From assembly GCA_018398765.1 (NCBI GenBank), contig JAHBMJ010000024.1, positions 1-64,000 on the forward strand: DNA of 64,000 bases, read 5' to 3'. Below the pieces are notes generated by a model. That model searched no databases, was not told the origin of the DNA, and saw only the letters and a list, made by a program, of their open reading frames with translations. Positions 6,764 through 51,769 of the stretch are shown here, one piece after another. The position numbers and the translations under genes were made by a program. This DNA is from Chromera velia. Its lineage: Eukaryota. How positions within the stretch are numbered: the stretch's first letter is position 1; every line of letters begins with the position of its first letter.

Positions 6764-9168
6764 ATGCCTCCAGTCTCTCGTCAGTTCCCTCCCTCTCGGC
6801 GTCCGGGGGGTGACGCGGAACAAGGAGAGGATGTTTCGATGGATGAGGAAGAACTTGCAGGCATGCTTGCAAATATGGGGCTCGAGTGTGGGATGGATGA
6901 GATGGAGGCTGTGGCAGAAGGGGAGGCATCTCCTGAAGTCGCTATGAAGATTGAGGGGCTGATTCGATATCTTCGTCTTTCAGAAGAAGCTTTTGCTGAA
7001 TTCGAAAGTGCCTCGCAGAGCCGATGGGCGTTTTACATCGCACTTTGTTTGAATTCCGAGCTTCCTTTCGTGGCTACCGAGGCGTCCCACTTCTTCTTGG
7101 ACCAGTTCAACAACGCCTGCTCACCGGTGCTGAAGATGGTCACGAAAGAGGAGGGATCTGACAGACGGCACTGTCGAACCGGAGATTGTCAAAATCTGCC
7201 ACACCATTGCTGACCGCCTCACAGCGGCCTGCAGCAACAACCTTGCCGTCGTTCGATGGAGCGCCCCCCTTCTCTGCCGCCTCCTCTTTCAGGACCGGCT
7301 GGCGTGTAAAGTCGGAAAGTTCCCCCATGAAGTCCCCCCCTTTGCCCTTTTCGATGCCCTTTCTGCCCTTCTTCACAGTAGCACTGCAGAGAAAATAGAG
7401 GCCGAGCTCAAATCACCTGAGGGAAGACATCAGGCACTGACCATATTGGGGAAGAGGGTGCCGATGTTGGGGGAGACCCTCTTCGCCGACCCTGACGTAG
7501 AAGAGTCAGAGTCCGAGTCAGACCCGATCTCTCCCCCCCAAGAGACGGTCGACAAAGCGATCGCAGAGGCGGGCCGCTATGCCGAAAAGACCCGCAATGC
7601 TGCTGCCGGGGCCCTAGCTGACCTGGCTCGTCATGTCACCCATCGCCTGGAAGTGAAGCACCCGTCTGCTCTCGGAGCACCCCCAAATTGTTTCCCGTCT
7701 CGTTGAGTTCCTCCTCTACCGACAGAGCCCTGCACAGACCCCCCAAACCCAACCGGGGAAGAGGGACCGTGCCACCGATGCTGCGGCTGCAGAGACGTTT
7801 GCATACGTCGCCGAGACTCTGGTGCTGCTCATTGATGGCACGTGTTGGCGTTGGGCGTTTGGAGCAGGGGGTGGCACACAGGAGAGGGAGAGGCTCACTG
7901 AGTTCCTCTCCCTCATTGCCTCCCAGGCCGCAGATGCACGGGTCCCTCCTGTAGGGCCCGTATCGAACCGTATGATCGCTGTGGGGTCTGGGCCTGGCCC
8001 TGGCCCTGGGCTGGCAGCCCTCGCACTGCCTTTTTCGGAGGCGGGGGCGGTGCCTGAGGAAGCGGGGCGACGCCTTTCGAGCAAGAAAGGCCCTATGAAG
8101 AAGGAGGAAGTGAGGGGGGGTGCGAAACTGATCTGGGGTCTGGCTGCCGGTGTCTCGGCCCTTTGCCACACCTCCTACAGTATGCGAATGAATGCAGCAG
8201 ACGCGCGTGCCATTAATGATTTTTCCCGCCTTCTTGACTCGAATCTCCAGGCAGCTCGGTCTTTGCTCACCTGCCTCAGACAGCTGCTTGATGTCTCAGC
8301 CGAGGGGTCCTTCTGGATGTCCCGACTCCACAAACACATGGGAGGGGGGGGAGAAGGGGGAGGGCAATCGCTGGGGGAGTGGCTGCTTTCGTCTGCCGAA
8401 CTCTCCATGGAAGCGTTCGTATCGACAGCAGCCCAGTATGCCTCCGGCTGTCTCGCAAACAAGTGGGGGCTTCTAGGGTCGAAGCCGGACTTCTTCAGCA
8501 CTCCCCCCCGATCCGAAGGCGTCAAGTGCCCCCCTCCGGCCGCCGCCGCCAGAGAAAGCAACCCCCTGCAGAACATGCTTGTGTGGCAGTTGGCTGCTAA
8601 CCCAGATCATCAGTCTCTCCCCCGTGTGCGAAAGAGTCTGAGAGGGGGAAGCGGGGCAGGGTTGAATGAGGGAAGAGAACCCGAGTATGATGTCGTGAGC
8701 GTCTGTTTTGCAGGGCTGGACGCGTCCCTCCGACTGGAGGCAGCGACAACGATCGCCAGGGGGGGGAGGTTGAGAGAGGGGTTGCCTCAGAGGGCGTGTT
8801 GCTGGTTTGTCCCTTCTGTGTGGAGTGCCCGTGTGGTGTGGAACAAGGAGAGGGGGAACGAGGAGTTCCGCGGGGGGGTTGTTCCTCTTGCCCTCGCGTT
8901 CTACCACAACGGTGTCGCGATGTGCTCGGACTTTCTCCACATGTTCAGGGCCATCTGCGGCAATGAGCCTGTGACTGAGAGGGAGAAGGGGGCAATGGCC
9001 GAGCTAAGGGGCTCTCTGCAGGTCACCCTCCTGTCCAACATTGCACAGTGCTGCCTGAGACTGGGGGAGAAGGAGCAAGCAGCAGAGGCAGCGAGGAAGG
9101 CCCTCAAGCTCGACCCCCGGCATGAGAAAAGCCTCCTTCGGTTGAAGAAGGCAACTGATCCAGAATGA
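6764..9168 (+). pseudogene. C-terminal TPR-domain protein with two apparent frameshifts (pseudogene or sequencing indels)
   Basis: Three overlapping coding-like frames (from 6764; 7134-7706; 7657-9168) joined by +1 shifts near 7140-7155 and 7655-7680. The C-terminus LLSNIAQCCLRLGEKEQAAEAARKALKLDPRHEKSLLR is a typical TPR motif. Confidence 0.6.
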
Positions 9169-15226: not shown

Positions 15227-16756
15227 TTACAGCTCGTCGCGAATTGTGCTGGAGTGAAACATGTCGCCGTGGCGGGACGTGTCTTTGGGGAAGAGTGGGT
15301 GCTCCACAACCGACCGCATCGCATCTTCAATGAACCTCACAGCCGCATCCACATCAACCTTGTAGTCGCGAAACTTTCTACTGCCCCGAGAACTCTCAGC
15401 CACTTCCACTTGCGGCTCAAAGGCTTCCACGTCCTCGCTTTTGCCGCTGTAGTATTCGAGACCGGAGAGGCGCGCCAGGTCGCTGTAACACAGGTCCTCA
15501 CAGTCGAAGACCTCAACAACGCTGCCCCAACGCGGCAGAAACAACATGTGGGTCAAACCCGCTCCATGCATCCCCACCAGCACGTCTGCACTCATCACGC
15601 TCTCGGCTTGATTCACGAAGGGGACCCGTGCACTCACATCAAAATCTGCGATATCAATTTGCACGCGTGACGCTGGGTATTTGTTTCTGACAGCCTGCAC
15701 GACGTCGCCCTCATTCAACAGCTTCCGCGTCCCACTGGTGGTGCCTGTGCCCCCACTGCGGGACAGAACAAGAACCTTGATGGGGACATCACTGGGTGGT
15801 GACCGAGCTTGCAATGCAGGTGCGAACTTCCAAAGTACGGGGTTGCCTCTGGTGATAAATTCAAGGAAGCTACGGAAGAAACCGCTGTGACGACAAGTGA
15901 TGTCGTACTTGGCTTTTTCGGTCCCAGAGACCCCCACCGGTGCAAGACGTCCCGGCACAGCCATGCTGAAGAAGAAGTTGGGCACACTCCCGCGGGGGTT
16001 CATGCTCAACGCCATTTCATCGTAACACACGCGCTTTCCCTTCAACTCGCCCACCGACATGACAGGCGCGTTGGGTGAGAAGCTCTTGAAGAGGTCCAGA
16101 TAAGAGGAGCGAAAGTTTCTGGCCAAGTCGCTCCACATACGGATCTCCAAGTCGACAAAGCTGTGCTGCACTCCAAAGGTGAAGTCTTCACGCTCCACTG
16201 CGTCGATATGCACCCAGTCTAGGAGGTGCAGAGTCAGATACAAGTTTGCAAAGTCGCACATGGCGTGGTAGAAGTTCGCGTGCGAGTCTGGTTTCAGGAA
16301 GATGGTCTTTGCTGTCACATGAAAGTCGCACTGTTCTTCCATAGGCACCCCGTCCCTCATCGGGGTCACCCAGCTCTGCTCATCTCCCCACCGCCTCCGA
16401 GTTCCTGAAGTGATCTTCTCGTTCGGTACCGTCAACACGACCCGCTTCCCATGGCAGGCTACAAAGTCCTCTCCACTGCACGCAAATGTGCTTTCCGCGT
16501 CCTGAAACACCCAGTGCAATGAGTCGCGGTACGTGCGCACCACGCCGAAGTCGGCCCCAGACCAAAATGCGTCTTCCTTCTGACGCGTGGGCTCCAAGCG
16601 GGTGGGGTTCTCCACGAGTGAACAACTTTCAAACGCTCGGTTCTCCTGGTCAAAGTAAGGGTACCATTTGTATCCAAAGGAGTCCATTTTCGCAGTTATA
16701 GTGGTGATGACACTCGGTGTACAGAGAAGTGCGAGAGCATGCGTCGAGCGAGGCAT
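15227..16756 (-). CDS. EOGT: EGF-domain-specific O-GlcNAc transferase-like protein (GT61), intronless, ~509 aa, ER-retention signal RDEL
   Basis: EOGT-type motifs: FWSGADFG, NFYHAMCDFANLYLTLH, GKRVCY...PR, CRHSGFFRSF, DVLVGMHGAGLTHMLFLPRWGSVVEVFDCEDLCYSDLARLSG, KFRDYKVDV. The protein ends RDEL*. First in-frame ATG is at 16756; the true start is not certain. Confidence 0.88.
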   Translation of the reverse strand: MPRSTHALALLCTPSVITTITAKMDSFGYKWYPYFDQENRAFESCSLVENPTRLEPTRQKEDAFWSGADFGVVRTYRDSLHWVFQDAESTFACSGEDFVACHGKRVVLTVPNEKITSGTRRRWGDEQSWVTPMRDGVPMEEQCDFHVTAKTIFLKPDSHANFYHAMCDFANLYLTLHLLDWVHIDAVEREDFTFGVQHSFVDLEIRMWSDLARNFRSSYLDLFKSFSPNAPVMSVGELKGKRVCYDEMALSMNPRGSVPNFFFSMAVPGRLAPVGVSGTEKAKYDITCRHSGFFRSFLEFITRGNPVLWKFAPALQARSPPSDVPIKVLVLSRSGGTGTTSGTRKLLNEGDVVQAVRNKYPASRVQIDIADFDVSARVPFVNQAESVMSADVLVGMHGAGLTHMLFLPRWGSVVEVFDCEDLCYSDLARLSGLEYYSGKSEDVEAFEPQVEVAESSRGSRKFRDYKVDVDAAVRFIEDAMRSVVEHPLFPKDTSRHGDMFHSSTIRDEL

Positions 16757-17653
16757 GAATGCCAAATCAGACAATTGACGGAATCCAATCGCAAAGGTGT
16801 CGGGAACACATGAAGTCAGGAGGTCTACAAAGACAAGCAGGCAGCAAGATCAGCGAGCCCAGCGTTTCCGCAAACTCAATTTGATGTGTGGAAAGACATT
16901 GTCAGATGGAGCAAAAATCGTACACTTAGTGAGTCTTCAAGACAGAATCCATACAGATGGGACTCAGACACCGCTTTCATGCAGTCAGTTAGCAGGGACG
17001 TCAGTCCGGCGTCCGCTGAGTCAAGAACAATGATTGAGGGTCTCAGTCAAGAAAAGGAATTCTTTGCATGGGCCCCGCGATTCTCATATGGCTCTCATTC
17101 TCTCGCGCTCTCAGTTTGTCCCATCAGAGACTGACGCGGACTTACTTCAAAATTATTAATAAAATTATTTTCAAAAATAATACCGACTCATATAATTGAC
17201 AATTCTTTAAATTTAACCTGCATTTCCATTGAGGGACAAACTCGGCATCAATGAGAATATTCTTCACATAGGATATCATAGGATATCAAAGGGCCCCGGC
17301 ATGGCCCCAATTGGGCAATTGCGCGCGTAGACGGCCGGTTCAACGATTGCACGCGGTCATTGAACATGTACAGTGACTGCCACATTCTCCTGCATGACAC
17401 GGGGTCACGGTCTGTACACCTAGGTATTGCCAAGGTCAATACACAATCTGAAGCATCCAGCCGCCTCCATTAAGAAGAAGGAGTGAAGTCAAACGCGTCT
17501 TCTTAAGCTGTTCCTCGAACTCGATTCTGGTCCACTGTTGTCCACGCAGCGGGGTGTTGTGCGAACACAATTTAGAGACTGCGCAAGCAGGCCATACAGG
17601 TCCTCACACCGGCTCCGATATCAAGAAAGCTGACGAAGAGTGTTTCAGAGCCT
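16757..17653. promoter_or_regulatory. Putative bidirectional promoter shared by the EOGT-like and EGF-repeat genes
   Basis: 897 bp between divergent start codons, with an AT-rich tract (17150-17225), a GC element GGGCCCCGGCATGGCCCCAATTGGGCAATTGCGCGCG (~17291-17327) and TGCATG sites. Confidence 0.5.
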
Positions 17654-18032
17654 ATGAAAATCATGTTTTCGAGCACTGCACAGTTTCTTGCCGTTGTGCT
17701 CCTCTTTGCGTCAACGTCTCCTTCACACGGGCAAGGTCAGTCAATCGAGCAGGCCCCTGGGAACTTGACAATGCAATTGCAGGGTCCGACGTCTTGGCCA
17801 TTATTTTCATTCATGTTTGCTGAATGGAGAAAGCAGAAGAGTGCGAGCCGCTCCAATTTGTACAAGGTCAACGCGTGGGCTGTGCATGTCCGCTATGTAG
17901 TCCTACGATGCCCTACGATGCTTGCGTGTGTCCTGTGCTCGTTTTCGTTCCACGTTATTGCTCCGTCCGTCACATCGAGAGTGCATGAGTGAGTGTTTGG
18001 GTGAGTGGATGGGCCATGCAGTCCCTCCTTCT

Positions 18033-18063
<31 letters not shown>

Positions 18064-21000
18064 CCTGTGCCTGTGCCGGCCTCTTTAATTCTTCCATGCT
18101 GACCGTCATGCAGTCGTTTCTCGTGCATGATGTAGTGGTGACATCTGTCATTGCAGAATGCACCCCCAGCCCGTGCGACCCCAATGCGGAGTGCACAGAA
18201 TTGAATCCCGGTTTTATGTGCATGTGCAATGAGGGCTTCACTGGAGCCGGGGAAACATGCTTCGGTGAGTGTTCCCCCCCCCCTCCCCATTCTTGCTCCC
18301 TGTCTGCCTGTGACACTGCTGTTCTGGTCTTTGGGTCGATTGCTGGGCGGGAGGGTCTCTTCTGCTGTTCCGTCTCAAGGCGCTTCCATAGGTATTTTCA
18401 GCTGCTTGTTTCTTCGTTTGGAGCTGTAAAGCAAAGCATCAATGCCGGTTTGGCTTCTTGCAGACATTCTCGAGTGTCTAGCCACTCCGTGCGACCCCAA
18501 TGCTGAGTGCACAGAACTCCCCGGATCCTTTGAGTGCATGTGCAATGAGGGCTTCGCTGGAGACGGGCAAATCTGCGACGGTGAGTGTTCCCCCCCCCCT
18601 CCCCATTCTTTGTCCCTGTCTGCCTGTGACACTGCTGTTCTGGTCTTTGGGTCGATTGCTGGGCGGGAGGGTCTCTTCTGCTGTTCCGTCTCAAGGCGCT
18701 TCCATAGGTGTTTTCAGCTGGTTGTTTCCTCGTTTGGAGCTGTAAAGCAAAGCGTCAATGTCGGTTTCCCTTTTTGCAGACATCGACGAGTGTGAAGACA
18801 GTCCGTGCGACTCCAACGCTCAGTGCACAAACACCCCCGGATCCTTTGAGTGCATGTGCCTTGAGGGGTTTACTGGAGACGGCGTGACATGCACTGGTCA
18901 GTGTCTTTCTCGCCTTTCTTGATCGCCTACTGCTCTTTCCATGAGTGGGGGGATGGGTGGGAAGTTGCTTTGTCTGTTCTGTCTGAGGGTCTTCGTGGTT
19001 CGCTCTTCGACGAGTACTCGATCGAGTTTGACTGTTGTAATGTCCCCTCCTGCAGACATCAACGAGTGCAACGCTGAGCCTGGACCATGCGCTGCCAACG
19101 CTCAGTGCATAAACACTCCCGGATCCTTCACGTGCATGTGCAACGAGGGATTTACCGGAAACCCTTTGGACGTGTGCATGGGTGAGTGCCTGCCTGTCTT
19201 CAGCCGAGTGCTCTCCATTTGCCTGCCTGTCTGCCTGTCTGCCTGTCTGCCTGTCTGCCTGTCTGCCTGTCTGCCTGTCTGCCTGTCTGCCTGTCTGCCT
19301 GTCTGTCTGTCTGTCTGTCTGCCTGCCTGCCTACCTGTCTGCCTGACTGCCTGCCTGCCTACCTGTCTGCCTGCCTGCCTGCCTGCCTGCCCGTCTGCTT
19401 GTTGCCTGCCTTGCCAGCTTCCCCGGCTGTATTCGTTAATGAATGAACTGTCGGTTGGTTATTCACTCGGGCGGCTGGTGAGTATGTGGGTGGGTCGGTT
19501 GGGCTGTTTGAATACATTTGAATCGATGAGGGTGACGTTCCCTCCTGCAGATATAGACGAGTGCACTTATTATGTGTTTATTTATTTAATTATTTATTCA
19601 TTTACTTATTCTGTATTCTGTTTTTATGTTCGAATCGATGAGGGTGACGTTCCCTCCCGCAGAAATAGACGAGTGCACTTATTATGTGTTTATTTATTGA
19701 TTTATTCTGTATTTTGTTTTCATGTTCGCATCGATGAGGGTGACGTTCCCTCCTGCAGATATAGACGAGTGCAGCGACATCCCCAATCTGTGCGATGACA
19801 ATGCTTCGTGCACAAACACCGAGGGAGACTTCATCTGCGACTGCGATGAGGGGTTCGTTGGAGACGGCTTCAATTGCGGTGGGTTGGCATATGCATTTAT
19901 TTTCGTATATCCATTTATTCTGTGTGAACAAGAATTCTGTATGAATATAAATGCATGCGACGAGGGATTCGTTGGAGACGGCTTCACGTGCGGTGGGTTG
20001 GCGTGGGTGGGTGGGAGGGTGGACGGATCGGTGCATGGGTAGGTTCGCTCTGTCCCTGACTGCCTGTTTTTACCATCTGTCAGGGTCTTTCAATCTCATC
20101 GCTGCGCTGCAGAGCAATTGTGAAGCAAGCTTGCTTGGTTGGGCCCGTTGCCTGCCCTCTTGCAGGCCCGGACTTGTGCTCTCCCGATCCATGTACTGCC
20201 GTGATTGCATTTACTTTCATACAGAATTCATCCACAAATAGTTGTGTGAAAGTAAATGCAGACCCGGACTTGTGCTCTCCCGATCCATGTGCTGACGATG
20301 CGGAGTGCATGAACACTGAGGGAACCTTCGTCTGCGTGTGCAATGAGGGATTCACTGGAGATGGAGTGACCTCGTGCATCGGTGAGTGTTTCTCCCACCT
20401 TCCTTGTTCCCTTCCTACCGGCCTGCCTGCCAGTCTGCTCTACGGGTTGCTGCGTTACTGCGTGGGTGGGTGGGCTCTATTCTTTCTCTCTATTGACTTT
20501 TTCTTTTAGTCTGTGGAAGCTGCAGAGCGAAGCGACTATGCGGATACCTGTTTCTGCAGACATCAACGAGTGCGGAGACAGTCCGTGCGATCCCAACGCT
20601 GAGTGCACAAACACCCCCGGATCTTTCACGTGCATGTGCAATGAGGGATTTACTGGAGACGGCGTGACATGCACTGGTCAGTGTCTTTCTTAACTTACTT
20701 GATCGCCTACTACTCTTTCCGTGGGTGGATGAGTGGGTGGGTAGGTGGGTGGGTGGGTGGATGGGTTGGCTATCGGTTGGTCTTTTCTTTCTCAGCCTCT
20801 TTGTGCGGCTCCTTTTTTCCAGTCGTCTCTCAACTTGCAGCATGTCGCTTCTTAAGCTGCCCGTCTGCCTGTCTGCCTGCCTGCCTGCTTGCTTGCTTGC
20901 CTGCCTGCCTGCCTGCCTGCCTGTCTGCCTGCCTGCCTGCTTGCCTGCCTGCCTGCCTGCCTGCTTGCCTGCCTGCCTGCCTTGCTGAGTCTCTTTTTGA

Positions 21001-22689
21001 CTGCGCTGTCTGCTCGTGACCTACTCATTCGGCCGGTGGATAAGTGGGCGGCTGGGTCAAATGGGTCGGTTTGGCTGTTTCATGGATTGAAATAGATTAT
21101 GGTGACGTTGCCTCTTGCAGACATCAACGAGTGCGGAGACAGTCCGTGCGACCCCAACGCTGAGTGCACAAACACCCCCGGATCCTTCACGTGCATGTGC
21201 AATGAGGGCTTCACTGGAGACGGCGTGACATGCACTGGTCAGTGTCTTTGTCAACTTCCTTTATCGCCTACTACTCTTTCCGTGGGTGGGTGGGTGGGTA
21301 GGTGGATGGGTTGGCTATCGGTTGGTCTTTTCCCTCTCAGGCTCTTTGTGCGGCTCCCTTTTTCCAGTCGTCTCTCATGTCGCTTCTTAAGCTGCCTGTC
21401 TGGCTGCCTGCTTGCCTGCCTGCCTGCCTGCTTGCCTGCCTGCCTGCCTTGCTGAGTCTCTTTTTGACTGCGCTGTCTGCTTGTGACCTACTCACTCGGC
21501 CGGTGGATAAGTGGGCGGCTGGATCGATTGGGTCGGTTTGGCTGTTTCATGGATTGAAATAGATTATGGTGACGTTGCCTCTTGCAGACATCGACGAGTG
21601 CGAAGACAGTCCGTGCGACCCCAACGCTGACTGCACAAACACCCCCGGATCCTTCACGTGCATGTGCAACGAGGGATTCACTGGAGACGGCGTGACATGC
21701 ACTGGTTAGTGTCTTTCTCGAGTTACTTGATCACCTACTGCTCTTTCCGTGGGTGCGGGGATGGGTGGATTGGGTCGGTTTGGTTGTTTCATGCACCGAA
21801 ATAGATTATGGTGACGTTGTCTATCTTGCAGATATCGACGAGTGTGAAGACAGTCCGTGCGACCCCAACGCTGAGTGCACAAACAGCCCCGGATCCTTCA
21901 CGTGCATGTGCAACGAGGGATTCACTGGAGACGGAGTGACATGCACTGGTCAGTGTCTTTCTCGCCTTTCTTGATCGCCTACTGCTCTTTCCGTGGGTGC
22001 GGGGATGGGTGGATTGGGTCGGTTTGGTTGTTTCATGCACTGAAGTAGATTATGGTGACGTTGTCTATCTTGCAGACATCGACGAGTGTCTAGCCACTCC
22101 GTGCGACCCCAACGCTCAGTGCACAAACACACCCGGATCCTTCACGTGCATGTGCAACAAGGGATTCACTGGAGACGGCTTCACGTGCGGTGGGTTGGCG
22201 CGGGAGGGGAAAATCTTCTGTTGCTGTGTGTCTCTTTCTAGCTTCGACCAGAGATCTCTCATCAGAATTGCTTCTGTTGATTCCTTTAATTCGTGCAGAA
22301 GTTATCAATTACTTCGATGATCCGTGTGATGACAATGCTCAGTGCACAAACACTCCAAATCCTTTGTGTGCACGTGCAGTGAAAGGTTCACTGCAGATGG
22401 GATTGCGTGCACCTTGCTATCCTCTTGCCCGACTGCATCTTGAGTTGCTCTCTGCAAGTCCGCCGTCGTCCTCCATAGAGCTCTGTCCTCCTGTTCTTCG
22501 CATGTGAAAAACCTTTTGAACGTGTCTGTCCCAAGAAGCCGAGTTCTGGGCATTTTATGATCTCATTCACGCATCTTCTCCCCTGACCACTGCGGCTTGT
22601 GTGCTGGCCGCGTCAATGCAGAGAGGAACAAAGGGGCCAAGCAGGATGAAGGGAAGAAGTACGACTTCGGCAAACTGGACGGTCAGTAG
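17654..22689 (+). CDS. Secreted calcium-binding EGF-repeat protein (signal peptide + 11 EGF repeats, one per phase-1 exon)
   Basis: Signal exon 17654-17735 ([26 protein letters not shown]). EGF exons at 18157-18264, 18464-18580, 18780-18896, 19056-19181, 19759-19878, 20262-20381, 20560-20676, 21121-21237, 21588-21704, 21832-21948 and 22076-22189, all bounded by GCAG|...|GT. Consensus DIDEC...[31 protein letters not shown] probable terminal exon lies at 22622-22689, but the 3' end is uncertain. Confidence 0.9.
22299..22413 (+). pseudogene. Decayed 12th EGF pseudo-exon
   Basis: After tgcag| it reads [20 protein letters not shown], then shifts frame to [18 protein letters not shown]. The first Cys and the GT donor are lost. 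Confidence 0.75.
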
Positions 22690-22824
22690 AGTAAAGATGG
22701 CTTGAAACAGCTCGATGAACAAGGCTCTTTCTCGGGCTGTGTGGTGACGATCTCCACTGCTTCCTCATTTCGTGTCGCAGAAGTTCCCACTTCGTTTGTT
22801 CGCCGTTGGATGTCTACCAAACCT

Positions 22825-23093
22825 GCATAATTTCTCTTTGTCTATTGTTCTTCAGGCCTGCTTAATTTATTTTTGTCTAGTATCCTGTGTCTATCGTTCT
22901 TCAGGCCTGCTTAATTTATTTTTGTCTAGTGTCCTTCAGGCCTTTTTAATTTCTTTTTGTCTATCGTCCTTCTGAGAATCAGGCCTGCTTAATTTCTTTT
23001 TGTCTAGTGTCCTTCAGGCCTGCTTATTTTCTTTTTGTCTATTGCCCTTCAGGCCTGCTGAATTTCTTTTTGTCTATTGTCTTCAGGCCTGCT
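22825..23093. repeat. ~35-bp minisatellite, ~7 copies
   Basis: Recurring TTCAGGCCTGCTTAATTT(A/C)TTTTTGTCTA. Confidence 0.9.
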
Positions 23094-24474
23094 TGGCGGT
23101 CTCGGCAACTTGACGAAGAAGGGTCTATTCCCTGAGTTCGGGGGTGACTCAGGCTCAGAGAAGAAAAGTTTCAAGCTGTCCGATCTCAAATTCGATCTTC
23201 CATCGTTGGACCAGCTTTTCCAAAAGGACTAAGCTGGAACGACTCGGATGTAAAGAGGCCAAAATATTGTTTCCAGTCCCTTCCGCTTCTTTTCATCAGA
23301 GCGGCTTCTATGAATGATAAAAGTGGTATCGTATTCTTCCTGTCTTTTACAAGAGCGTTAATAGCAAAAATGTCTGACTCATGATTGTGGCTGCAAATGT
23401 TTTGACTGCCAGGATTTGATAGACTTTGCAAGGAGTCGGCAGACTCGCAACAATCTCTTGATGCATTCTATAAAAGCTTAACACTGTGTGAACATCCTAC
23501 TAAAAGCTCTTGATTCTACTTTTTTGTGTTTTCAATGCCAGTTTCAATATAAACAAGCACAAACTGTTGTTAAAAGGGAAATATGAAACGCAGAAACTTC
23601 GATTATCGTTCGGTGTTTTATTTAGTATCTTTTATTTAGCATTTTTTAAGTGTTATTTACTTTTAATATGATCATCATTATGACTGTCAACTGGTCTTTG
23701 CCATTATTATTGAAGCACAAGGCCAATCGTCATCATTCTCATCATCATAATATGCCATTGCCGTCGGCCCATACTAAGCGTCTAGCGTTTGGCAGGTCAC
23801 AATATGCAAGACATTTGAACGCAGATTGTTATCATCTAGATGAAAATCCGATCAAAATTGTTTCCTATCTTTACCTATCCTATTTTGTTTTATTATTTTT
23901 ATGTCTTTTATGGAGTGTTACACCTGGTGACCTAGTGTTACACTCTCGAGGTCCTGTGTAGGATAGTGTAGGATGAATGCGCACTTGAGTCAGCACTTGA
24001 ATGAAAAGTGAGAACAGTCATGTACGAATCAGTACGAATGAAGGTGTGCAGGCGCATCAAAGCCCGCCTCCAGCGTGTGTATCTGGGATTATCCAGGGCG
24101 GTCCGCATTACCTAGGAAAAGCGCGGGCCCGCGGGGGNNNNNNNNNNNNNNNNNNNNNNNNNNNNNNNNNNNNNNNNNNNNNNNNNNNNNNNNNNNNNNN
24201 NNNNNNNNNNNNNNNNNNNNNNNNNNNNNNNNNNNNNNNNNNNNNNNNNNNNNNNNNNNNNNNNNNNNNNNNNNNNNNNNNNNNNNNNNNNNNNNNNNNN
24301 NNNNNNNNNNNNNNNNNNNNNNNNNNNNNNNNNNNNNNNNNNNNNNNNNNNNNNNNNNNNNNNNNNNNNNNNNNNNNNNNNNNNNNNNNNNNNNNNNNNN
24401 NNNNNNNNNNNNNNNNNNNNNNNNNNNNNNNNNNNNNNNNNNNNNNNNNNNNNNNNNNNNNNNNNNNNNNNNNN

Positions 24475-26820
24475 GGGGGGGGGGGGGGGATAAACTCAAG
24501 GGCCCGAAGCTCCATGATGATAGTCACTGGCCCTGTGTTCCCCCCTCCTTCTTCCCCCGCTTTTTCTCTGCACATGATAGAGGAAACCCTGAAAGGAATA
24601 AACGTGAATAAGGCTGCTGGTCTTGATGGAATCGCCCCTGAACATCTCGCTCTTTGCTTCAAACACTCAACCCTTTCTCGCTTTCTCCTCTTTGTCTTCT
24701 TTAATCTGTTTCATTCTTTTTCATTTTGGCCATGTAGATGGAATGTCCTGAGGATTGCTCCCGTACCGAAGGGCCCCCCTTCTCTTGATTGTAATGAATG
24801 GAGGCCCATTCACATTGTTAGTCTCCTGGGTAAGGTTTTTGCTCTTCTTATGGACGTCCGCCTTCGTAAAGAGACAAAGATCGGTGAGAGACAGCTAGGC
24901 TTCAGGAGGGGCGTGGGGACACGGGAAGCGTTCGCGTCCCTCTCTTCTCTCATTCTTCAGTCTAAGCACAAAAGGAAGCCCCTCATCGCAGCGTTTGTAG
25001 ACTTCTCCAAAGCTTTTGATACAGTGCTCAGAGAGAAAATGTTACAAAGACTTAAGGACGAAGGGGTCAGTCAGGCGGACATCCACATGATTCATTCCAT
25101 GTACTGTAATGTGACAGCAAGGGTTGATGGGGGAGACAAGTGCTTGTCGGAGGGAGCGGGTGTGAAGCAGGGTGACCCTCTTTCTCCTCTTCTTTTTCTT
25201 CTGTTTATAAACAATTTGCACAAAGCCCTCAGCTCGGAGAACCAACAGCAGAGCGGTAATGAGGGAAGGAGCGCTTTGAAACCTGTCAAGCTTTCCTCGA
25301 CCCTAATAGAGAGTATTGGATACGCTGATGATCTTGTGTTGTTTGCCCACAGCGCTGCAGACCTGCAGGAGAGACTCCAGCGCCTCGAGGTATACTGCAA
25401 TGAGCACGGCCTCACGGTGAACTTGAAGAAAACAAAGATCCTCCGTCTATCGTCCCCTGATCCTCTCATTGAGCCCGACTCGGAGAGTCCCCTTTTGTTT
25501 TCAATGGAAGGCCGGTTGAGCATGTTGATAGATACAAATACCTAGGCAACTGGATCTTTGAGGGGGGGGATCTATCTAAAACTGTGAAAGCAAGAATTGA
25601 GTCGGCAGAAAGGGCTCTGGGGGGAGTATTTGGAACTCTCTCTTCAATTGGTTTTGTTTCTTCTTTCTCCCGAATTCAACTGTTCAAAGCTCTATGGGTG
25701 CCTGTGGCAATGTTCGGTCTTGAAGCCCTAGCTCCCACTCAGGCAGTCAGATATTCAATGCATCTCTCGATGCATTGCAGCTCCGTTTTGTTCGCTGGTC
25801 TTTTGGTTTGTCCCAGAACTCTTTTGTTTCTCCCTCTCTTCACTCTTTTGGTTTGGAACCCTTTGGTTGTCTGCTTGCGAAACAAGTAGCCAGCTTCTTT
25901 CAGTCTCTTAAATCTATAGAACGCGCCTTGCCCACGGCTGTATGGGAGGCCTGCATCGCTGGTTCTTGTGCTCCCTTTGTCTCCTCCACCAAGCGTCTGG
26001 CTGTGCCCCTTGACAGTTCTCTCCTGGCAGACACAGATGAGCCACGCCAAGAAAAGCCAAAAAAGAAAGGAAAATTCAAACGGAAAGAGGCGTGTCGCAA
26101 GATTGAGACGAATCAATGGCTTGGTGAATGGGCTAGAAGACAGGAAGGCAGCAGGAATAGAGACAGAATCTTCCATCCTCTTAGTGCCCTCACTGATTTC
26201 CAAAGAGAGAACCCTTCCAGACAGAGGCTCTCCATGCTCCTGCTTGCAGAAAGGAAATGGCAGTCATGTCCGTCAGACACAGGAAACGATCTACACATAC
26301 GCACGTTGTCCCCTTGTCTTCTTAAATCCTCTGCAAACATCCGCCCTCTCCTGAGAGCGATGACGGGTGGTTTTGTGCAGCGGGGGGAGCTGGAGAAGAC
26401 CTGCTCGGCTTGCTCTGGCAGAAAAGTTCGTGATGAGATCCATCTGCTCACGGAATGTGCGGACACAGAGAGGGAGAGACGGAAGCTTGACGAAATCATC
26501 AGCAGAATAAAGGAGCGCGCGCCCATTGAGAAACGGGTAGAAATTGCGCAATGGGTGGCTGTCTCAGCTGGTAGGGGAGTGGGGGAGAGTGAAAAGAAAG
26601 TCCGAGAGATGATCGCTCTTATATCGTCGTTCCAGCCTCTGGCGGGTATGAGGGCGGTAGAAGAGTGTATAGCCAAATTGGCGTGAGTTCGTGTTGTCAT
26701 GTTCGAATGGGTCAATGCGCTAGGTTAACAAACCAACATTGCATGTCATGCCCCGTGGTTGGCCAGAGCCTAAGTGGTGGCTCACCGGCTTTAACCGCCT
26801 CAATTCAATTCAGATTCAGT
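24475..26820 (+). mobile_element. 5'-truncated, frameshifted non-LTR retrotransposon (LINE): RT plus C-terminal Cys/His finger
   Basis: RT motifs KAAGLDGI, WRPI, QLGFRRG, FVDFSKAFDTV, GVKQGDPLSPLLF, YADD, GLTVNLKKTK, and YKYLG after a frameshift near 25500. A second shift lies near 25770, followed by CSAC...H....C, stop 26686 and an (ATTCA)-like tail near 26800. No endonuclease domain is seen, though the adjacent N gap limits the view. Confidence 0.92.
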
Positions 26821-29307: not shown

Positions 29308-32300
29308 CCCTTCTGAAAGGAGAAGAACCAAAGAAACTGGACCACACCACGAAGTGCTGCTCAGAATCATTGAGTAATCACCTACAGGAGCCATCGACAA
29401 CAACGAAAACGACAACAGCAAGGAAAAACAACAGAACCTGGACCACACCACGAAGTGCTGCTTAAATTGGCAGATTGATATTCTTGGTCCCCTCACAAAA
29501 ACAAAGCAGTGTTGCACGGTGCCCAATTGTAGTACCTGCGCATCTTTCTGCTCGCTCGATGACTTTGAGTGGGAAGAAGAGCGATCAGCAACAATCAGGG
29601 AGGTGGGGAAGAAGGCGTTTGCTGTGCAGGCGGGGAAACAAGTGGTTGCATCGGGGGAGACGGTTGCAGAACTTGACTCCCAGTGCACGTTCTCGATTTT
29701 CCCCAGATCGAAAGTGCGCGTCATCCGCGAATGGCCCTGCGTATCTCGGTACGTAGAGGTCTTCGGACACAGGTCCGAGGCAGTCACCACCTCCAGGGGT
29801 TTGTGTTGTCTCCAGTATCCGTCTCCAGGGGGGGAGGGGACTGTTTCCGTGGTGCAGATCGGGAACATCACGGATAGTCCGGAAGCCGACCTCCTGATCC
29901 ATGCGGGGGCGGTCGATCGGTTTGATGGGACTGCGGTTGTGAGGAGCGCAGGTGGAAAGTTCGTGCGCGTGGGTTTGCAACGAAAATTTGATCCACAGGG
30001 GGTGTACCCTTTCCGAGCAGCGACGGTGGTGAAGGCCCTTTCGGTCAGCCGGGTGGCAGGGGGGGTCCCTGTGTGCGATGTGCTTGCAAAGGAGCAGTGA
30101 GCTGCGCATGTACCCTCTGTCTGTACGCTCTTTTCTGTGTTGATCAGATTTAGTTCCCATGCTTGCATTGAGTGTTTTCTGTGTGTGTATGAATAGGAGT
30201 TTGATTCTGCTTGGGTTGGTTCCCTGCAGAATCCTCCCGCACACGGGGATTCACTGAACACCACCCCAGACAACGACTCCCTCTCCTCTTTCAAAGGCAA
30301 ATAGGGAGTAGCCACATGTTCCTCGATTCCTCGTCCTTTTGTTTCGAATTCTCTTCCTCCTTCTGTTCTTTTTCGCATGCTGCGTCAACACATTCGTTTT
30401 GGTCATGCTTCTCTTCCTCGTTTGAGTGCAAGCTTGAAGGAGCAAAAGGCTCTCTGCTGATGTTTTCGAACTCAGCCAGATTAATTCTGATTTGGGAAAG
30501 AAGATTTCTCTTTTGGGTTTTCGGTATGTGTTCGTGATGAGAGATGCAAAGGCAGGGGTGGTGTTGACACGTGCGATGAAGAAAAGAACGGACACCGGTC
30601 CTCTCTCTGCTGTGTGTGAATGGATTGATAAGTACGGGCTCATGAAACGATTTGTGTCAGACAACGCAGGTGAGTTGTGTGAAGGTAAAGTGAAGGCAAT
30701 GTTAGAAGGAAGGGGGGTGCATGTTTGCCCCCGACCTCCTGAGTCATCAATGGGGCCTGCAGAGCGATGGGTAAGAACGGCACGTGCTGGTCTGAGATCG
30801 ATGATCCATACATGGAAGTTGCCTCTCGAATTCTTTCCGTGTGTGCTACGGGCCGTTGAGTATTCATACAATTGCACCGCGTCTGCTGAGACTGGCCGCT
30901 CTCCTTTGCGTTCTGCTTTGGGTGTCCGGCCTGACACCTCAACCATGCCTGGAGACCCTGTTGTGTTTGTACCTCCCTTTCACAAGAAAGTTCAGAATTC
31001 GCTTCGTCCCCCAGGAAAGGTAGGCATCTTCCTCTCTGTTGTCTCTCCATCCGAGTGGCAGTTAGTGCAATGGGATGCTCTTCGGGGTGATTGGTCAAGG
31101 GTCGTGCGCGTTCATCCGATGAAGCATGGTGTGAAGGCTTGCTCCCCTGGTGTCCTTCTCTCTTCGGGTTTGGTTGATCACATAGGGGAGTGGCTTTTGC
31201 CTGAACGCCGGCCTCGGTCAGAAGTCGGGGGGGGGGATAAGAAGAAAATTGACTGGGTCGGCGGGGGGCATGGGCCAGAAGAGAAAGAAACCGAAAGCAA
31301 AAACCTTCTTTCCTCCTCTTCTTCCTCTTCTTCTGTATCCTCCTCTTCTTCTTCTGCCCCATCTTCTTTCCCTGAAGTCTTGTACGGAGAACCAGTCGAA
31401 TTGGATGATCTGTCAGAAGAGAAGGCAGACCAGTCAGTCTGTGGATTTTGCTTTCATGAAGGCCACAGAGCGTTTCGATGCACTCAGCAAAAGAAAAAAA
31501 AAGAATGAGGATCCTGAGCTTTCTTTTTCCATTTCCGACACAGAGAAACTGTCAGGCAAGAATCAGATCCCTGTTTCTCCATCGGATCCTGCAGTCCGGG
31601 GGGGGAAGTTTGATCAAGCAATGGAAAGAGAGCTGAACAAACTTGAAAAGTTCTCGGTCCTCAAAGAGACAGACGGAGAGAAAGACGACGTGCCCGCTTC
31701 CTTGTCTCATGTGCTGTTTGTTCCATCTTTCTTTTGTGTCGTTGGGTGTTCACTTGGAAGTTGAAGGACGGGGAGAGAATCCCAAAAGCTCGTCTTGTCT
31801 GCATGGGGCATTCAGGAAGGGATCATCGCAATTGTGACACATATTCAGGCACACCTGATTCTTCAATCTTTCGTTTGTTTTTCATCTTTTGTCTGGTAAA
31901 GAATTGGGCGATGGCAATCACGGATGTCACGGGTGCCTTTCTCCAGGCGCCAATTGTCGGTTCTGCTGCCTCTTCTGTGCGTGTGAAGCTGCCTTCATTG
32001 TTTCCAAAGGGGAAGCGGTGGTCTTTCGTTGCAGGGGGGGTGTATGGCTTGAGAAAGGCATTGTGCGGACTGAAAGATGCTCCGCGCATCTTCACGCAAT
32101 GGCTGAAGAAAGTGCTCTTCCGTCTCTTTTCCTTTTCTGAGTGTGTTGAGTCCATTTTGATCCAAACTCGTTCTCCCGTTCCTTCTCCCGTCCGTTCGTC
32201 AGATGAAAAATTATGGGCTGACGTTGAGCAGGCAGACATCACCGCAGCGTGTCAGATGCATGTTGATGATTTGTTTTTACTTGCACCTGATCCGTTGGAT

Positions 32301-33224
32301 TTGTTGAAGCAGTTTGGGAAGAACGTGGAGTGCGAAGATCCAGAGCTGATTGGAGCAAAGAGGAAGAAAGTGGTTGGTCTTGAGATGGCACATGACAGAC
32401 AGAAGGGAGAAATCACTCAAGGACAAATGAGTTACGTCAGCACAGAGTCTCTTCACGAGCCGAAGAGAAGCCGTAAGCTCGAGAAGGCAGACTTCGAGAA
32501 GCCAGAAGAGAAAGAAGTAGACATGAGACTGGAAAAAATTTTCCGCTCATTGTTAGGGATGCTGGGATGGTTGTGCAAAACCCGTTTTGATCTTTCTTTT
32601 GCTTTTTCACAGTTGTCTCGCTGGTCTTCCTGTCCCTCTCCACGTGTTCTTCGCACCCTTTCAACCGTTTTGTTTTTGGCTGTTGAGAAGGCATGCGAGC
32701 TTGTATTTCTTGCTGTTTGTCTGCCTGAACTGCGTTTGTTCGTCGATGCTGCTTATTGTGATCGACTGTGCGAAGCGAGAAGTGGGTATGTTTTTCAGCT
32801 TGCCAATGCAGACTGGCCGTTGACGTGTCGAGCAAATTTGATAGACTGGGCAAGCCACAGAGAGAAGAGACTCATGCGTTCCACCGCTGGAGCAGAACTG
32901 CTTGCTCTCTGTCAGGGTGTGTTGAGAATGCCTTTGCTTTTAAGGATCACTCGTATGCTTTTTGGAAAGGTGAAGGTGCATGTTCTGACAGACAGTGCAG
33001 CGCTGGTTGAGCAGCTCAAAAATAGAGTCTGCAAGAAAGAGCCGACCTTGCAGGGTCGTTTGCTTTTTGTGTTGCAAGAGTTGGAGGCAGTGGGGGCTTC
33101 CTTTGAGCACGTTGATGGAGCCGTGAGTCAGATGGCGGATTGCCTTACAAAATGGAAGGATCCTGATGTGGCGTGGCCGAAACCGATGGATGCCGCTTAT
33201 TAAGCATGCGCGTTAAGGGGGGAG

Positions 33225-48517: not shown

Positions 48518-51500
48518 TCACGCTTGGACGGTCTCTTTCATCTCTCCCGCCCCTTCTTTGTTTTGCTCGTTCACGATCTTTTGGAGATTTCTGCACACAC
48601 ACACAGAGGGGGGGCACACCTCAACTTTCACAAAAAAAAACAAAAGGCCAGAAAACCACGCATCCTTCCCTCTATATTGACTCAAGCGAACGCTTCCCCA
48701 ACTTTCCTTCCCTCTCCCACCCCCGTGTCCGTGCCTCCCAGCTTTCCCCCATGACGTCCTCAGAGATCAATCGACGCACGCAAGGACGCATCAAAAATTT
48801 CGATGCGTCCTTGCGTGCGTCGATTGACGTCCTCAAAGATCCCTTCAACGTCCATTCATCCACCCCCTAGATCACCCATAAGCAAAAAAACAAAGAAACC
48901 GACCGCGGGAGTTTCCAGTTCACATTCTCCTCCACGTCCACCACCTCCTCCACGCTGCTCACGCCGTACGCCATGAGCTTGTCAATCACACCCTGCACGG
49001 ACAAACATCAAAAGCATGTGGACATACGCTCTTGAGGCTTCCGCGTGCAGAGAAAGTCTCGGCCCACACGAGTGCACACGAATTTGAAGGCAAAGGAAAA
49101 AATTGAGAAAACGTCTGTTCCTTCACTGCTACGCCGGAAAGAGAAAAGAGAGCACGAACGCGACGGAAAGGGAAAAGCAAAACCACAGAGAGGTGTGAAG
49201 TGCTGATACCGAGGAACTTCCAGCAGAGAAACAGAGATCGAAAGTCAGAAGTCCCACGCACCTGCACAATGTCCTCCGGTGTGCTTGCCCCCGCCGTCAA
49301 GGAGACCCTCTTGACGCCCTCCAGCCACTCCGGCTTCACGTCATCTGCGCAGTTGACGAGGTGCGCGTTGACCCCTCTGTTCGTTGCGACCTCCCTCAGC
49401 CGGTTGCTGTTGGAAGAAGTGTGGTGACCGACAACGATCGTCAGATCGGTCTGCAACAGTTAGAGAGAGAGGAGAGGAGGCGGGGGGGACAGAGGACACA
49501 GGGGGCAAATGGATTTCGGGACACACCGACAAGCAGTGTGAGGAAGAGAGGAAAGTCCTACAAAAATAGCAAAACACCTGCACTCACTCAAACTTTTCCG
49601 CAAAATGAGGGGTGCAAGATGAGAGAATAAGCATGTAGGTGAAAAATGCAGACAGAAGGAGATGGGCAGGGAGGGAAGAAACCTTTGAGCCAACAGCTCA
49701 CATCTTCAACAAAAGCCTTGAGGGCGTTCTGTCTGTTCGTCGTTGCGTAACAGATGGAACCGGAGGGGATGGTCTTCGACTGCGGGAATTTCTTCAGGAG
49801 GGCACCTGCAAGGAGAGACACACATGTGGAGTTGTCTTGTCGTTCGATCTTCTCTGGTTCGGCTGCTCTGCCTGTCTCAACCACACACATATGCGTGCAC
49901 GCGAGCGCGAATGGCTGGAGGGAGAAAATTCTTGAAGAGGTTTGAGAGAGGGAAAGCGTCTGAATGAAGTTTTTCATCCATTTTCGCATTCTCCTTTTTT
50001 GTCTTTGCGACGCAGCCCTGGACCAAGAGACTGAGGGGAAAGCGAAGAGACGTAGAAAATGAAGGACGGAACGAAAGAAGGAAAGAAGGAAGAGGGGAAG
50101 GAAACCGAAGGAAGGAAGGAAGGAAGCCAAGAAGTACAAACTGTCTCCCTCACTCACCCAGAATTTCTGCGCAGTCATCCATAGAGAGCGTCGTTTGGGT
50201 GGCATAGAAGATCCTGAGAACAGCAGACGAGAGGAGAGAAAAGGAATACAGACGTTTGAGCGCTGAGAACGAATGGATTGTCAGCATCTCAAAAACGCGT
50301 CGCAGCGACATCAGAACCGACTCACCGGTGTCAAAAGGTTAAAATTCGCTCCTCAAGGGGCTCTGGCTGGAAGAGAACCACTCCGATTTGAAACAACGAA
50401 AAAAAATGAAAAGTGAAAAGTTGCCGCAAGGAAAAGGAAAGTGCACACGATACACATACAGGCCTATCAAAACCTGCTCAGACGTTCACAGGAAAGCACA
50501 ACCACTGCCTGACTTGTCATCGGGACCGAAGGGGAGCTTGTCGACGTCCTCGGGGGTCTCCAGGACGGTCGTCTGCTCGGGGGCCTCCGCAACCACTCCC
50601 TGGATCTCAACTGCACCCATGCACGCACGCATGTCCACGCACGCAAATGAGACGAACGGACACATGAGTACAGAAACAGAAGAGAAGTCTCACAAACCGC
50701 CGTCTCCTCCAGGGAGTCTTCGACCGCTTTCTGAATCCCGTCTAGACGCTGTTAGTCTCTTCCATTCACTGAGTCAATCAATCAGAGTGCGAAGAGGACA
50801 AGTCAGGGAAGAAAGGGGTGCAATTCCAAACTTACCGAGGGTCTACTCATTCAACCCTCCATTCTTTGTGGTTACAGTGCCGGTCTCACGAGTACACCAA
50901 CCTCTGCTTCCTCTACACAGTCAGCCAGAAGGACACACGAAATGCGCATTTCCTTTTTTCATTGCTTCTCCTCTCATGACTGACAGGCAGACAGAGACAG
51001 ACAGACTCCATGGATTTTCTTCACAGAAAGACGGACAGACAGAAACAGAAGCCACCTTCCTCTCCCAAGTTCCCATCTCTTCTTTCTTTGCCTTCCTCTC
51101 CCAAGTTCCCATCTCTTCTTTCTTTGCCCCTACAATCCACTTGTCCATCTCTTGTCCTGTCGAGCTGTGCGTGCACTTACCGTGCTTCTTGTGTCCGATG
51201 AGGACGATGTTCTCTCCCTTGGCTGCCGCCTTCTTCACGTACACGTGGACCTTGGTGACCAGAGGGCAGGTGGCGTCGACCTCGTACAGCTGTCTGTCTG
51301 CAGCCTGCTGACGGACCTCGGGGGGAATGCCGTGGGCAGAGTAGATCACCTTGGCGCCCTCAGGAACATCAGCAAGGTCCTCAATGAAGATCGCCCCCTT
51401 CTCCTGCACAAACAGGGAGGATGGGAAGAAACGCATTTTCCCCTTCTCTCTTCACAGACATACATTTTCTGTGTGTATCTTCACATCGTTTCTGCAGAAA

Positions 51501-51769
51501 AAAACAAAACGCGAGGGCGCACAAATTATCCATTTATGTCCACAACATGTACGTCCACTCGAGTCCCGGCAAAACCTCTCAACACCCACACCCTCCCTGA
51601 CTGACCCTGAGACGGTCACACACGATTTGGTTGTGCACGATCTCGTGCTTCACATAGACGGGCGCTCCCCAGATCTTGATGGCCGCCTCAACGGTGTCGA
51701 TCGCCCTGGTGACACCCTCACAGAACCCCCTCGGGGCTGCGAGCATCAGCTTGATCCCTCCCTCAGCAT
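48518..51769 (-). other. ispH: HDR/IspH (LytB) half of the fusion gene
   Basis: Motifs [64 protein letters not shown]. All three [4Fe-4S] cysteines are present. Confidence 0.95.

What the first reader, a model, noticed from the sequence alone, without database searches (positions are those of the whole stretch)
15227..22689. Head-to-head enzyme-substrate pair: EOGT-like O-GlcNAc transferase and a secreted EGF-repeat protein carrying the acceptor Thr
Seen: the ER-retained (RDEL) GT61 gene and the signal-peptide EGF gene diverge from 897 bp of shared upstream DNA. Nine of the 11 EGF repeats have C5-x-x-G-F-T-G (e.g. [25 protein letters not shown]). Established: animal EOGT adds O-GlcNAc in the ER to Ser/Thr in C5-x-x-G-x-(S/T)-G-..-C6 of EGF repeats (Notch, Dumpy). 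Inference: this is a co-regulated extracellular O-GlcNAc module in a unicellular alveolate, a pathway usually regarded as animal-type. Caveat: there are 4-5 residues between G and C6 here, versus 2 in the usual Notch consensus.
Basis: partly seen in the sequence, partly recalled or inferred. Interest (0 to 1): 0.92.

Follow-up and report, generated by a model that had tools for sequence, protein, structure and literature searches.

The report
Non-animal EOGT beside EGF-repeat gene
An alga, likely Chromera, carries a gene related to the animal enzyme that adds a sugar to Notch, facing a gene for a likely secreted protein of the repeat type that such enzymes modify; soil bacteria keep the same enzyme in a cluster with Notch-like repeats and relatives of three other Notch sugar enzymes, so this chemistry likely is not confined to animals.

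Summary
Both genes are real. The intronless GT61 gene (16756-15227, minus strand, 509 aa, ends RDEL) keeps all six UDP-binding residues of mouse EOGT. It matches EOGT at E 2e-36 against 2e-5 for POMGNT2. It falls in a non-animal subfamily (100/97) beside animal EOGT. The EGF gene starts 897 bp away, has 11 EGF exons, and ends at 23232, not 22689.

The 'acceptor Thr' argument is weak. S/T fills that position in 66 of 108 similar repeats elsewhere, six of the repeats are near-copies, and 0 of 11 have the published G-x2-3-C6 spacing. Co-regulation is unshown: head-to-head pairs under 1 kb are reported as over-represented in chromerids.

Better support comes from outside the window. The top search hits are Acidobacterial genes clustered with Notch-type EGF genes (8 of 11 loci) and with POGLUT1, GXYLT-like and XXYLT1 homologues. 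My six searches found no paper on this cluster.

Verdict: a non-animal EOGT, likely active on EGF repeats (about 0.7). The neighbour is its substrate at about 0.5, and a co-regulated module at about 0.3.

The parts
15227..16756 (-). EOGT-family GT61 glycosyltransferase, single exon, 509 aa plus stop
   Evidence: one ungapped contig of 2.0-2.1 kb spans it in each of 3 of 4 runs
15230..15241 (-). C-terminal RDEL, ER-retention-type signal
   Evidence: HDEL is required for ER retention of mouse EOGT (PMC13123520)
16265..16276 (-). N161 and H164, equal to mouse N245 (UDP phosphate contact) and H248 (candidate catalytic base)
15725..15760 (-). R333 and R344, equal to mouse R372 and R377, with a 6-residue insertion between them shared with most of the non-animal subfamily
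15548..15610 (-). Q383 and H403, equal to mouse Q412 and H432, the uridine contacts that POMGNT2 lacks
16757..17653 (.). 897-bp stretch between the two start codons; shared promoter inferred, not shown
17654..17735 (+). EGF gene exon 1, hydrophobic leader
18157..18264 (+). EGF repeat 1 (Thr)
18464..18580 (+). EGF repeat 2 (Ala at the acceptor position)
18780..18896 (+). EGF repeat 3 (Thr), calcium-binding type
19056..19181 (+). EGF repeat 4 (Thr; five residues between G and C6)
19759..19878 (+). EGF repeat 5 (Val at the acceptor position)
20262..20381 (+). EGF repeat 6 (Thr; five residues between G and C6)
20560..20676 (+). EGF repeat 7 (Thr), near-copy group
   Evidence: not separately resolved by contigs
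21121..21237 (+). EGF repeat 8 (Thr), near-copy group
21588..21704 (+). EGF repeat 9 (Thr), near-copy group
   Evidence: not separately resolved by contigs
21832..21948 (+). EGF repeat 10 (Thr), near-copy group
22076..22189 (+). EGF repeat 11 (Thr)
22301..22414 (+). degenerate, frameshifted twelfth EGF copy inside an intron
22622..22681 (+). EGF gene exon 13, charged tail
23087..23232 (+).
   Evidence: joint in 4 of 4 runs

Best explanation
The minus-strand gene encodes an EOGT-family enzyme that likely works in the ER and likely adds one GlcNAc from UDP-GlcNAc to a Thr between C5 and C6 of folded EGF repeats, with the protein of the facing gene as a possible acceptor. Shown: family membership, all six UDP-site residues, RDEL, spliced transcripts of the EGF gene, contigs spanning the enzyme gene, and linkage of the same subfamily to EGF genes in Acidobacteria. 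Inferred: ER entry through a weak leader; UDP-GlcNAc as donor (from the EOGT-specific Q and H uridine contacts); EGF repeats as acceptor class; tolerance of the longer C5-C6 loop. Speculation: the enzyme's shortened N-lobe segment (21 residues against 52 between the R155 and W207 columns, with both Cys of the C135-C187 bridge gone) may be what admits that longer loop. The sugar would aid folding or secretion of a rod-like extracellular protein, by analogy with Dumpy. Shared regulation is not part of this claim.
For: Best PDB sequence match is mouse EOGT 9wjk, E 2e-36, against POMGNT2 at E 2e-5. The Atlas model matches an EOGT cluster at TM 0.78 (both are predicted models). N245, H248, R372, R377, Q412, H432 and W207 are all kept (their roles from PMC13123520). 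In a 39-row LG+C20 tree the non-animal subfamily has support 100/97, the animal-type group 97/94, and the two together 95/91. The six best hits after itself are bacterial or bacterial-type proteins, E 1e-60 to 1e-51. An EGF gene lies in 8 of 11 GTDB loci; the three misses are two contig ends and one gene fragment. In one bacterial family 9 of 11 genomes with the enzyme have an EGF-domain match, against 5 of 81 without it (Fisher p 1e-7, kinship not corrected). In 3 of 5 genomes examined every EGF match lies in the cluster. One unnamed relative is fused to a POFUT1 homologue (E 1e-70). No other EGF exon lies in the 64-kb window.
Against: 0 of 11 repeats have two or three residues between G and C6, as the published consensus requires, whereas 21 of 22 bacterial repeats do. 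The bacterial linkage therefore speaks for Notch-type repeats, not for this type. The Thr frequency matches background. Thr persists in EGF repeats of a bacterial genome where no EOGT was found (G348). The enzyme lacks the C135-C187 disulfide, called critical in mammals, and has no N-glycan site. Its leader is weak. Four of the 5 listed differences between the runs and the window inside the ORF change an amino acid, though none touches a catalytic residue. Head-to-head spacing is ordinary for the lineage. No second eukaryote with the linkage was examined. The bacterial clusters are probably one acquisition.
Confidence: 0.5

Rival explanations
1. The enzyme is a working EOGT, but its acceptors are short-loop, Notch-type EGF repeats encoded elsewhere. 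The neighbour is an ordinary fibrillin-like calcium-binding EGF protein that lies next to it by chance.
For: 0 of 11 repeats fit the consensus spacing. The best relatives of a repeat are fibrillin and LTBP-like proteins, and 6 of 11 repeats fit the strict POGLUT2/3 site instead. EGF proteins are described as expanded in chromerids and close genes are often head-to-head.
Against: A chance EGF neighbour should be rare. If 50-150 of about 26,000 genes (gene total; the EGF number is my assumption, only five examples are listed) carry EGF domains, either neighbour would be one in roughly 0.4-1% of cases. The scan, however, looks at very many pairs.
Confidence: 0.27
2. The enzyme has drifted to another acceptor (a glycan or a non-EGF protein) or is decaying, so no EGF O-GlcNAc pathway operates here.
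For: Long branch (1.25 changes per column); loss of a conserved disulfide and about 30 residues; weak leader; 4 of 5 strain differences are non-synonymous. [quoted passage not shown]
Against: An intact 509-codon frame, all six UDP residues, RDEL, contigs spanning the gene in 3 of 4 runs, and the subfamily's link to EGF genes and to other EGF-modifying enzymes.
Confidence: 0.18
3. The intronless enzyme gene, alone or with the EGF gene, came recently from bacteria or is a contaminant of the assembly.
For: No introns in an intron-rich region; top search hits are bacterial.
Against: Third-position GC is 0.67, against 0.68 and 0.67 for two neighbours. Identity to the bacterial proteins is only 32-37%. 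The window's protein branches outside the group holding the bacteria, which sit with a fungal protein and a KEEL-ending protein. It has RDEL. The EGF gene has 13 introns and a different repeat type. No POGLUT1, GXYLT, XXYLT1, POFUT1 or transporter match lies in the window.
Confidence: 0.05

Closest known systems
Metazoan EOGT (GT61; mouse structure 9wjk) acting on Notch and Dumpy EGF repeats
   Same: GT61 family; all six UDP-site residues and W207; xDEL end; a Thr at the matching place of the neighbour's C5-C6 loop.
   Different: Sister subfamily at about 30% identity; 6-residue insertion between the two arginines; no C135-C187 bridge; N-lobe about 30 residues shorter; no N263 glycan site; weak leader; the candidate acceptor has 4-5 rather than 2-3 residues before C6; single-celled host; enzyme gene next to an EGF gene.
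POMGNT2 (GT61)
   Same: Fold (Foldseek E 1e-15, TM about 0.46) and N-R-R triad.
   Different: Sequence match only E 2e-5 over about 75 residues; POMGNT2 lacks the Q412 and H432 contacts that this protein has.
Fibrillin/LTBP-type calcium-binding EGF arrays (POGLUT2/3 substrates)
   Same: EGF_3 and EGF_CA domains; 6 of 11 repeats fit the strict POGLUT2/3 site, 8 of 11 the relaxed one.
   Different: Short 525-aa protein with no TB domain or membrane anchor seen in its translation, and a charged tail with no usable Atlas hit.
Acidobacterial EOGT / GXYLT-POGLUT1 / XXYLT1 / EGF / MFS cluster (seen here; no paper found)
   Same: Same EOGT subfamily and insertion; enzyme gene next to a gene for EGF repeats with a leader.
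   Different: Operon-like and on one strand; Notch-type repeats with exact EOGT and POGLUT1 sites; three more enzymes and a transporter; no xDEL.

Membership tests
EOGT (GT61) | GT61 domain, closer to EOGT than to POMGNT2 | tested here: met
EOGT (GT61) | N-R-R triad plus H248, Q412 and H432 | tested here: met
   against swan EOGT P0056, whose numbering matches the mouse residues at 13 of 14 positions checked
EOGT (GT61) | Groups with animal EOGT to the exclusion of other GT61 proteins | tested here: met
   95/91; the outgroup was six more distant GT61 proteins, none identified as POMGNT2 or a plant xylosyltransferase
Metazoan EOGT clade in the strict sense | Nested among animal sequences | tested here: inconclusive
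   best trees place it in a sister clade, but an AU test does not reject holding it with 14 animal-type rows (p 0.254); only 5 of the 21 'animal' rows carry a source name
EOGT (GT61) | C135-C187 disulfide and N263 glycan site | tested here: not met
   the model has low confidence at residues 118-126, so the local alignment is uncertain
EOGT (GT61) | Signal peptide plus xDEL, ER lumen | tested here: inconclusive
   RDEL present; leader hydropathy weak; no predictor or localisation
EOGT (GT61) | Transfers GlcNAc from UDP-GlcNAc to folded EGF repeats | not testable with these tools
   needs an enzyme assay
EOGT substrate EGF repeat | C5-x-x-G-(Y/F/L)-(T/S)-G | tested here: met
   9 of 11, but near background
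EOGT substrate EGF repeat | Two or three residues between that G and C6 | tested here: not met
   0 of 11; nine have 4 and two have 5; consensus
Co-regulated bidirectional pair | Shared promoter and correlated expression | not testable with these tools
   only assembled contigs were available; their depth cannot rank expression
Conserved gene pair | Same linkage in related alveolates | not testable with these tools
   no eukaryote genomes are held; no hit named as an alveolate among those I could name

The most novel reading that the evidence does not exclude
Notch-type EGF glycosylation is not an animal invention. A separate non-animal EOGT subfamily (this alga, a chytrid-related fungus, unnamed eukaryote-like sequences, soil Acidobacteria) travels with its EGF acceptor genes. 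The alga has re-tuned it for long-loop, fibrillin-like repeats and placed enzyme and acceptor on one promoter. A family of soil bacteria runs an exported Notch-glycan assembly line: O-GlcNAc plus O-glucose-xylose-xylose on their own Notch-like repeats, with a linked transporter that would supply the sugars.
Probability: 0.4. Interest if true: 0.92.

Novelty: new variant of a known kind. Interest (0 to 1): 0.78.

Why it matters
The 2026 EOGT structure paper (PMC13123520, parts 1-3 of 5 read) traces EOGT only to sponges and cnidarians and suggests it co-evolved with animal EGF arrays. A review (PMC8724618, passages) calls extracellular O-GlcNAc a modification of animal EGF domains. A full-site EOGT in a relative of the apicomplexans, inside a wider non-animal subfamily, would move the origin back or require transfer between eukaryote groups. 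It would also give a natural test of how the enzyme reads the C5-C6 loop. The bacterial cluster is the larger surprise: homologues of EOGT, POGLUT1, GXYLT and XXYLT1 beside Notch-type repeats that carry the matching sites. If active, it offers simple bacterial versions of enzymes whose human form is mutated in Adams-Oliver syndrome (EOGT), and a route to making glycosylated EGF repeats in bacteria.

Tried and rejected
No genome is held for the window, so EGF gene number, other Notch-glycan enzymes and synteny in the host could not be counted.

Co-expression: four runs were laid. All are contigs, RNA by guess only (no RNA holder listed on record), so depth and the uncovered stretch between the genes were not used. 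A second laying was not available.

A complex prediction of enzyme plus one repeat was not available.

Foldseek on my model (mean pLDDT 68) returned only POMGNT2 as a GT61 match. The EOGT entry did not appear; it may postdate that library, which I did not verify, so this says nothing on EOGT against POMGNT2.

The Thr motif as evidence: rejected. The background came from 16 proteins, many animal, so it may itself include true EOGT sites.

Recent transfer from bacteria: rejected.

POFUT1 in the named bacteria: not found in 5 genomes by protein or in 92 by family (where nothing rang in the controls either). The fusion P0004 rests on one unnamed 3.2-kb contig.

Repeat search around the shared upstream DNA: nothing notable. 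The tail exon gave no usable Atlas hit. Two look-ups of earlier findings returned nothing.

Tree rows left out: hits covering under 300 profile positions (two shorter rows were added by hand), ten near-duplicate bacterial rows, the database copy of the window's own protein, three near-duplicate outgroup rows; 39 of 75 rows went into the careful tree. Three further subfamily-like fragments and one frameshifted bacterial-type sequence were not placed.

Literature searches without a matching paper. The library lacks most subscription journals. bioRxiv supplements were not seen; the substrate list of 10.1101/2021.11.02.463467 could bear on the spacing rule.
Full report
1. What is in the sequence. 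A 509-codon ORF runs from 16756 to 15227 on the minus strand without introns and ends RDEL. It carries PF04577. A second gene starts at 17654 on the plus strand, 897 bp away. It has a leader exon, 11 EGF exons and two tail exons, all 13 introns in phase 1, and gives 525 aa. Contigs of four public runs show GT-AG joints for most introns, including 22681 to 23087 in 4 of 4 runs. A frameshifted twelfth repeat is skipped. Exon-plus-intron units have duplicated recently: two intron pairs match at 189 of 199 and 120 of 127 bases. One ungapped contig spans the enzyme gene in 3 of 4 runs. Host: an SBP/FBPase gene and a LytB/HDR gene lie in tandem at about 49-54 kb, as in the SBP3-HDR fusion described for Chromera velia (PMC3971594, passages). 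I infer a chromerid, likely Chromera.

2. The enzyme. Its best solved relative is mouse EOGT (E 2e-36); POMGNT2 scores 2e-5. The EOGT structure paper (PMC13123520, parts 1-3 of 5) names N245, H248, R372, R377, Q412 and H432 as UDP-site residues, the last two absent from POMGNT2. All six are kept, as N161, H164, R333, R344, Q383 and H403. Differences: a 6-residue insertion between the arginines, loss of both cysteines of the C135-C187 bridge with about 30 residues around them, no N-glycan site, and a weak leader. A profile search of 1.84 billion representatives supplied rows for trees. The careful tree puts the protein in a 10-row clade (100/97) with Acidobacterial proteins, a protein of the fungus Hyaloraphidium and three unnamed sequences. 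This clade is sister to the animal-type group (97/94; joint support 95/91). An AU test does not reject grouping it with animals (p 0.254). Either way it is EOGT family. No POMGNT2 or plant sequence was identified in the outgroup.

3. The neighbour as acceptor. Nine of 11 repeats have Thr at the right place. The published consensus ends G-x2-C6 or G-x2-3-C6 (PMC5388531, PMC3650022 and bioRxiv 2021.11.02.463467, passages), and these repeats have four or five residues there. Among 108 distinct long-loop repeats from 16 other proteins, 66 have S/T and 42 have T. Six of the 11 repeats are 83-97% identical, which leaves 4 of 6 independent cases, in line with background. The repeats look like fibrillin-type calcium-binding EGF: 6 of 11 fit the strict POGLUT2/3 site (PMC13756544, passages), 0 of 11 the POGLUT1 site and 1 of 11 the POFUT1 site. 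The motif is compatible with acceptor status but is not evidence for it.

4. Head-to-head arrangement. PMC4501334 (passages; supplements 1-12 searched for four terms, 13-16 for EGF only) gives a median intergenic distance of 989 bp in Chromera and an excess of head-to-head pairs under 1 kb, cites modest co-expression of such pairs, and notes EGF expansions. Spacing and orientation are thus ordinary. Only the identity of the neighbour is unusual; my rough estimate of chance (0.4-1%) rests on an assumed EGF gene number.

5. Evidence from relatives. The top hits are bacterial. Eleven GTDB loci, labelled Thermoanaerobaculia, Holophagales or Acidobacteriota, some on contigs of 0.8-8.4 Mb, hold the gene. 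Eight of the 11 also hold a gene for Notch-type EGF repeats, with a leader where I read the protein. In one search, 7 of the 11 hold a POGLUT1-like gene, mostly fused to a GT8 domain, and 8 hold all or part of an MFS transporter gene. One 1044-aa protein (L009) matches XXYLT1 at E 7e-105 and POGLUT1 at E 1e-83; its N-terminal GT8 domain I call GXYLT-like from a recalled motif, not from a call. Of 22 bacterial repeats, 21 have the exact EOGT site (11 with F/Y, the rest W), 22 the POGLUT1 site and 1 the POFUT1 site. My pattern already required the glycines, the aromatic residue and the proline, so these counts test only the S/T and the spacing. The gene was found in 2 of 301 genomes of the class and 11 of 92 of one family; EGF matches in 3 of 301 and 14 of 92; the overlap in the family is 9. 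Four further EGF loci carry the other enzymes without an EOGT in the stretch fetched or at a contig end (L101/L102, L104, L106, L107), and keep Thr in most repeats, so the cluster can lose EOGT. Further metagenome loci repeat the pattern. An EOGT-POFUT1 fusion and an MFS-EOGT fusion come from unnamed contigs. This is probably one acquisition from a eukaryote (inference from patchiness and the tree), so it counts as one independent link between the subfamily and EGF repeats.

6. Mechanism. Likely: the enzyme enters the ER, is held by RDEL, binds UDP-GlcNAc through the six kept residues, and uses H164 as base on an EGF Thr (about 0.7 for activity on some EGF repeat). That the neighbour is an acceptor needs tolerance of the longer loop (about 0.5 overall). 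The shortened N-lobe may provide it; this is speculation. Co-regulation: about 0.3.

7. Novelty. PMC13123520 follows EOGT only within animals; PMC8724618 (passages) treats the modification as animal; PMC2770060 (passages) lists O-fut as holozoan and EGF repeats as eukaryote-only. Six searches (listings only) found no account of a chromerid EOGT or of the bacterial cluster, within a library that lacks most subscription journals. Databases do auto-label some bacterial members as O-GlcNAc transferases. I rate the window's finding a new variant of a known kind, interest 0.78.

Noticed in passing
L009:9917-16760; L007:8986-15721; L001:4805-13525; L006:8165-16658: Soil Acidobacteria encode EOGT, an MFS transporter, GXYLT-like/POGLUT1(/XXYLT1) fusion proteins and an exported Notch-type EGF protein in one cluster; 11 of 92 genomes of one family hold the EOGT gene. 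No paper found.
   Followed up: partly
P0004 (745 aa) and P0082 (899 aa), unnamed contigs: Fusions of the bacterial-type EOGT with a POFUT1 homologue (E 1e-70) and with the MFS-like transporter.
   Followed up: partly
P0114: The fungus Hyaloraphidium curvatum has a member of the same subfamily ending HGEL, with Ser in place of N245 and without the insertion.
   Followed up: partly
P0133, P0146: Two unnamed proteins ending TSEL and REEL form a still deeper EOGT-like branch, with His in place of N245.
   Followed up: no
window 48989-53954 (minus): SBP/FBPase and LytB/HDR exons in tandem, matching the SBP3-HDR fusion described for Chromera velia.
   Followed up: partly
window 17654-23232: Every EGF repeat is one phase 1-1 exon, and exon-plus-intron units have duplicated recently; partial copies lie at about 19551, 19664, 19950 and 20166 and a frameshifted copy at 22301-22414. 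This resembles animal-style exon duplication (recalled).
   Followed up: partly
window 18464-22189: Six of 11 repeats fit the strict POGLUT2/3 site and 9 of 11 the Asn/Asp hydroxylation pattern, so other EGF-modifying enzymes may be worth seeking in this organism.
   Followed up: no
window 15656-16666: One run shows a non-canonical 1009-base skip inside the enzyme gene (AT..CC ends, 5 shared bases), probably an artefact.
   Followed up: no
window 24001-26686 and 30438-33200: Retroelement remains: a reverse-transcriptase-like frame just downstream of the EGF gene (read by eye) and an RVT_2 match at 31647-33200.
   Followed up: no
window 7657-9165 (plus): Long ORF with a TPR repeat.
   Followed up: no
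P0045, P0053: Bacterial proteins with long-loop EGF repeats like the window's; in P0045 all 11 such repeats have S/T at the acceptor position. Their gene neighbourhoods were not seen.
   Followed up: no
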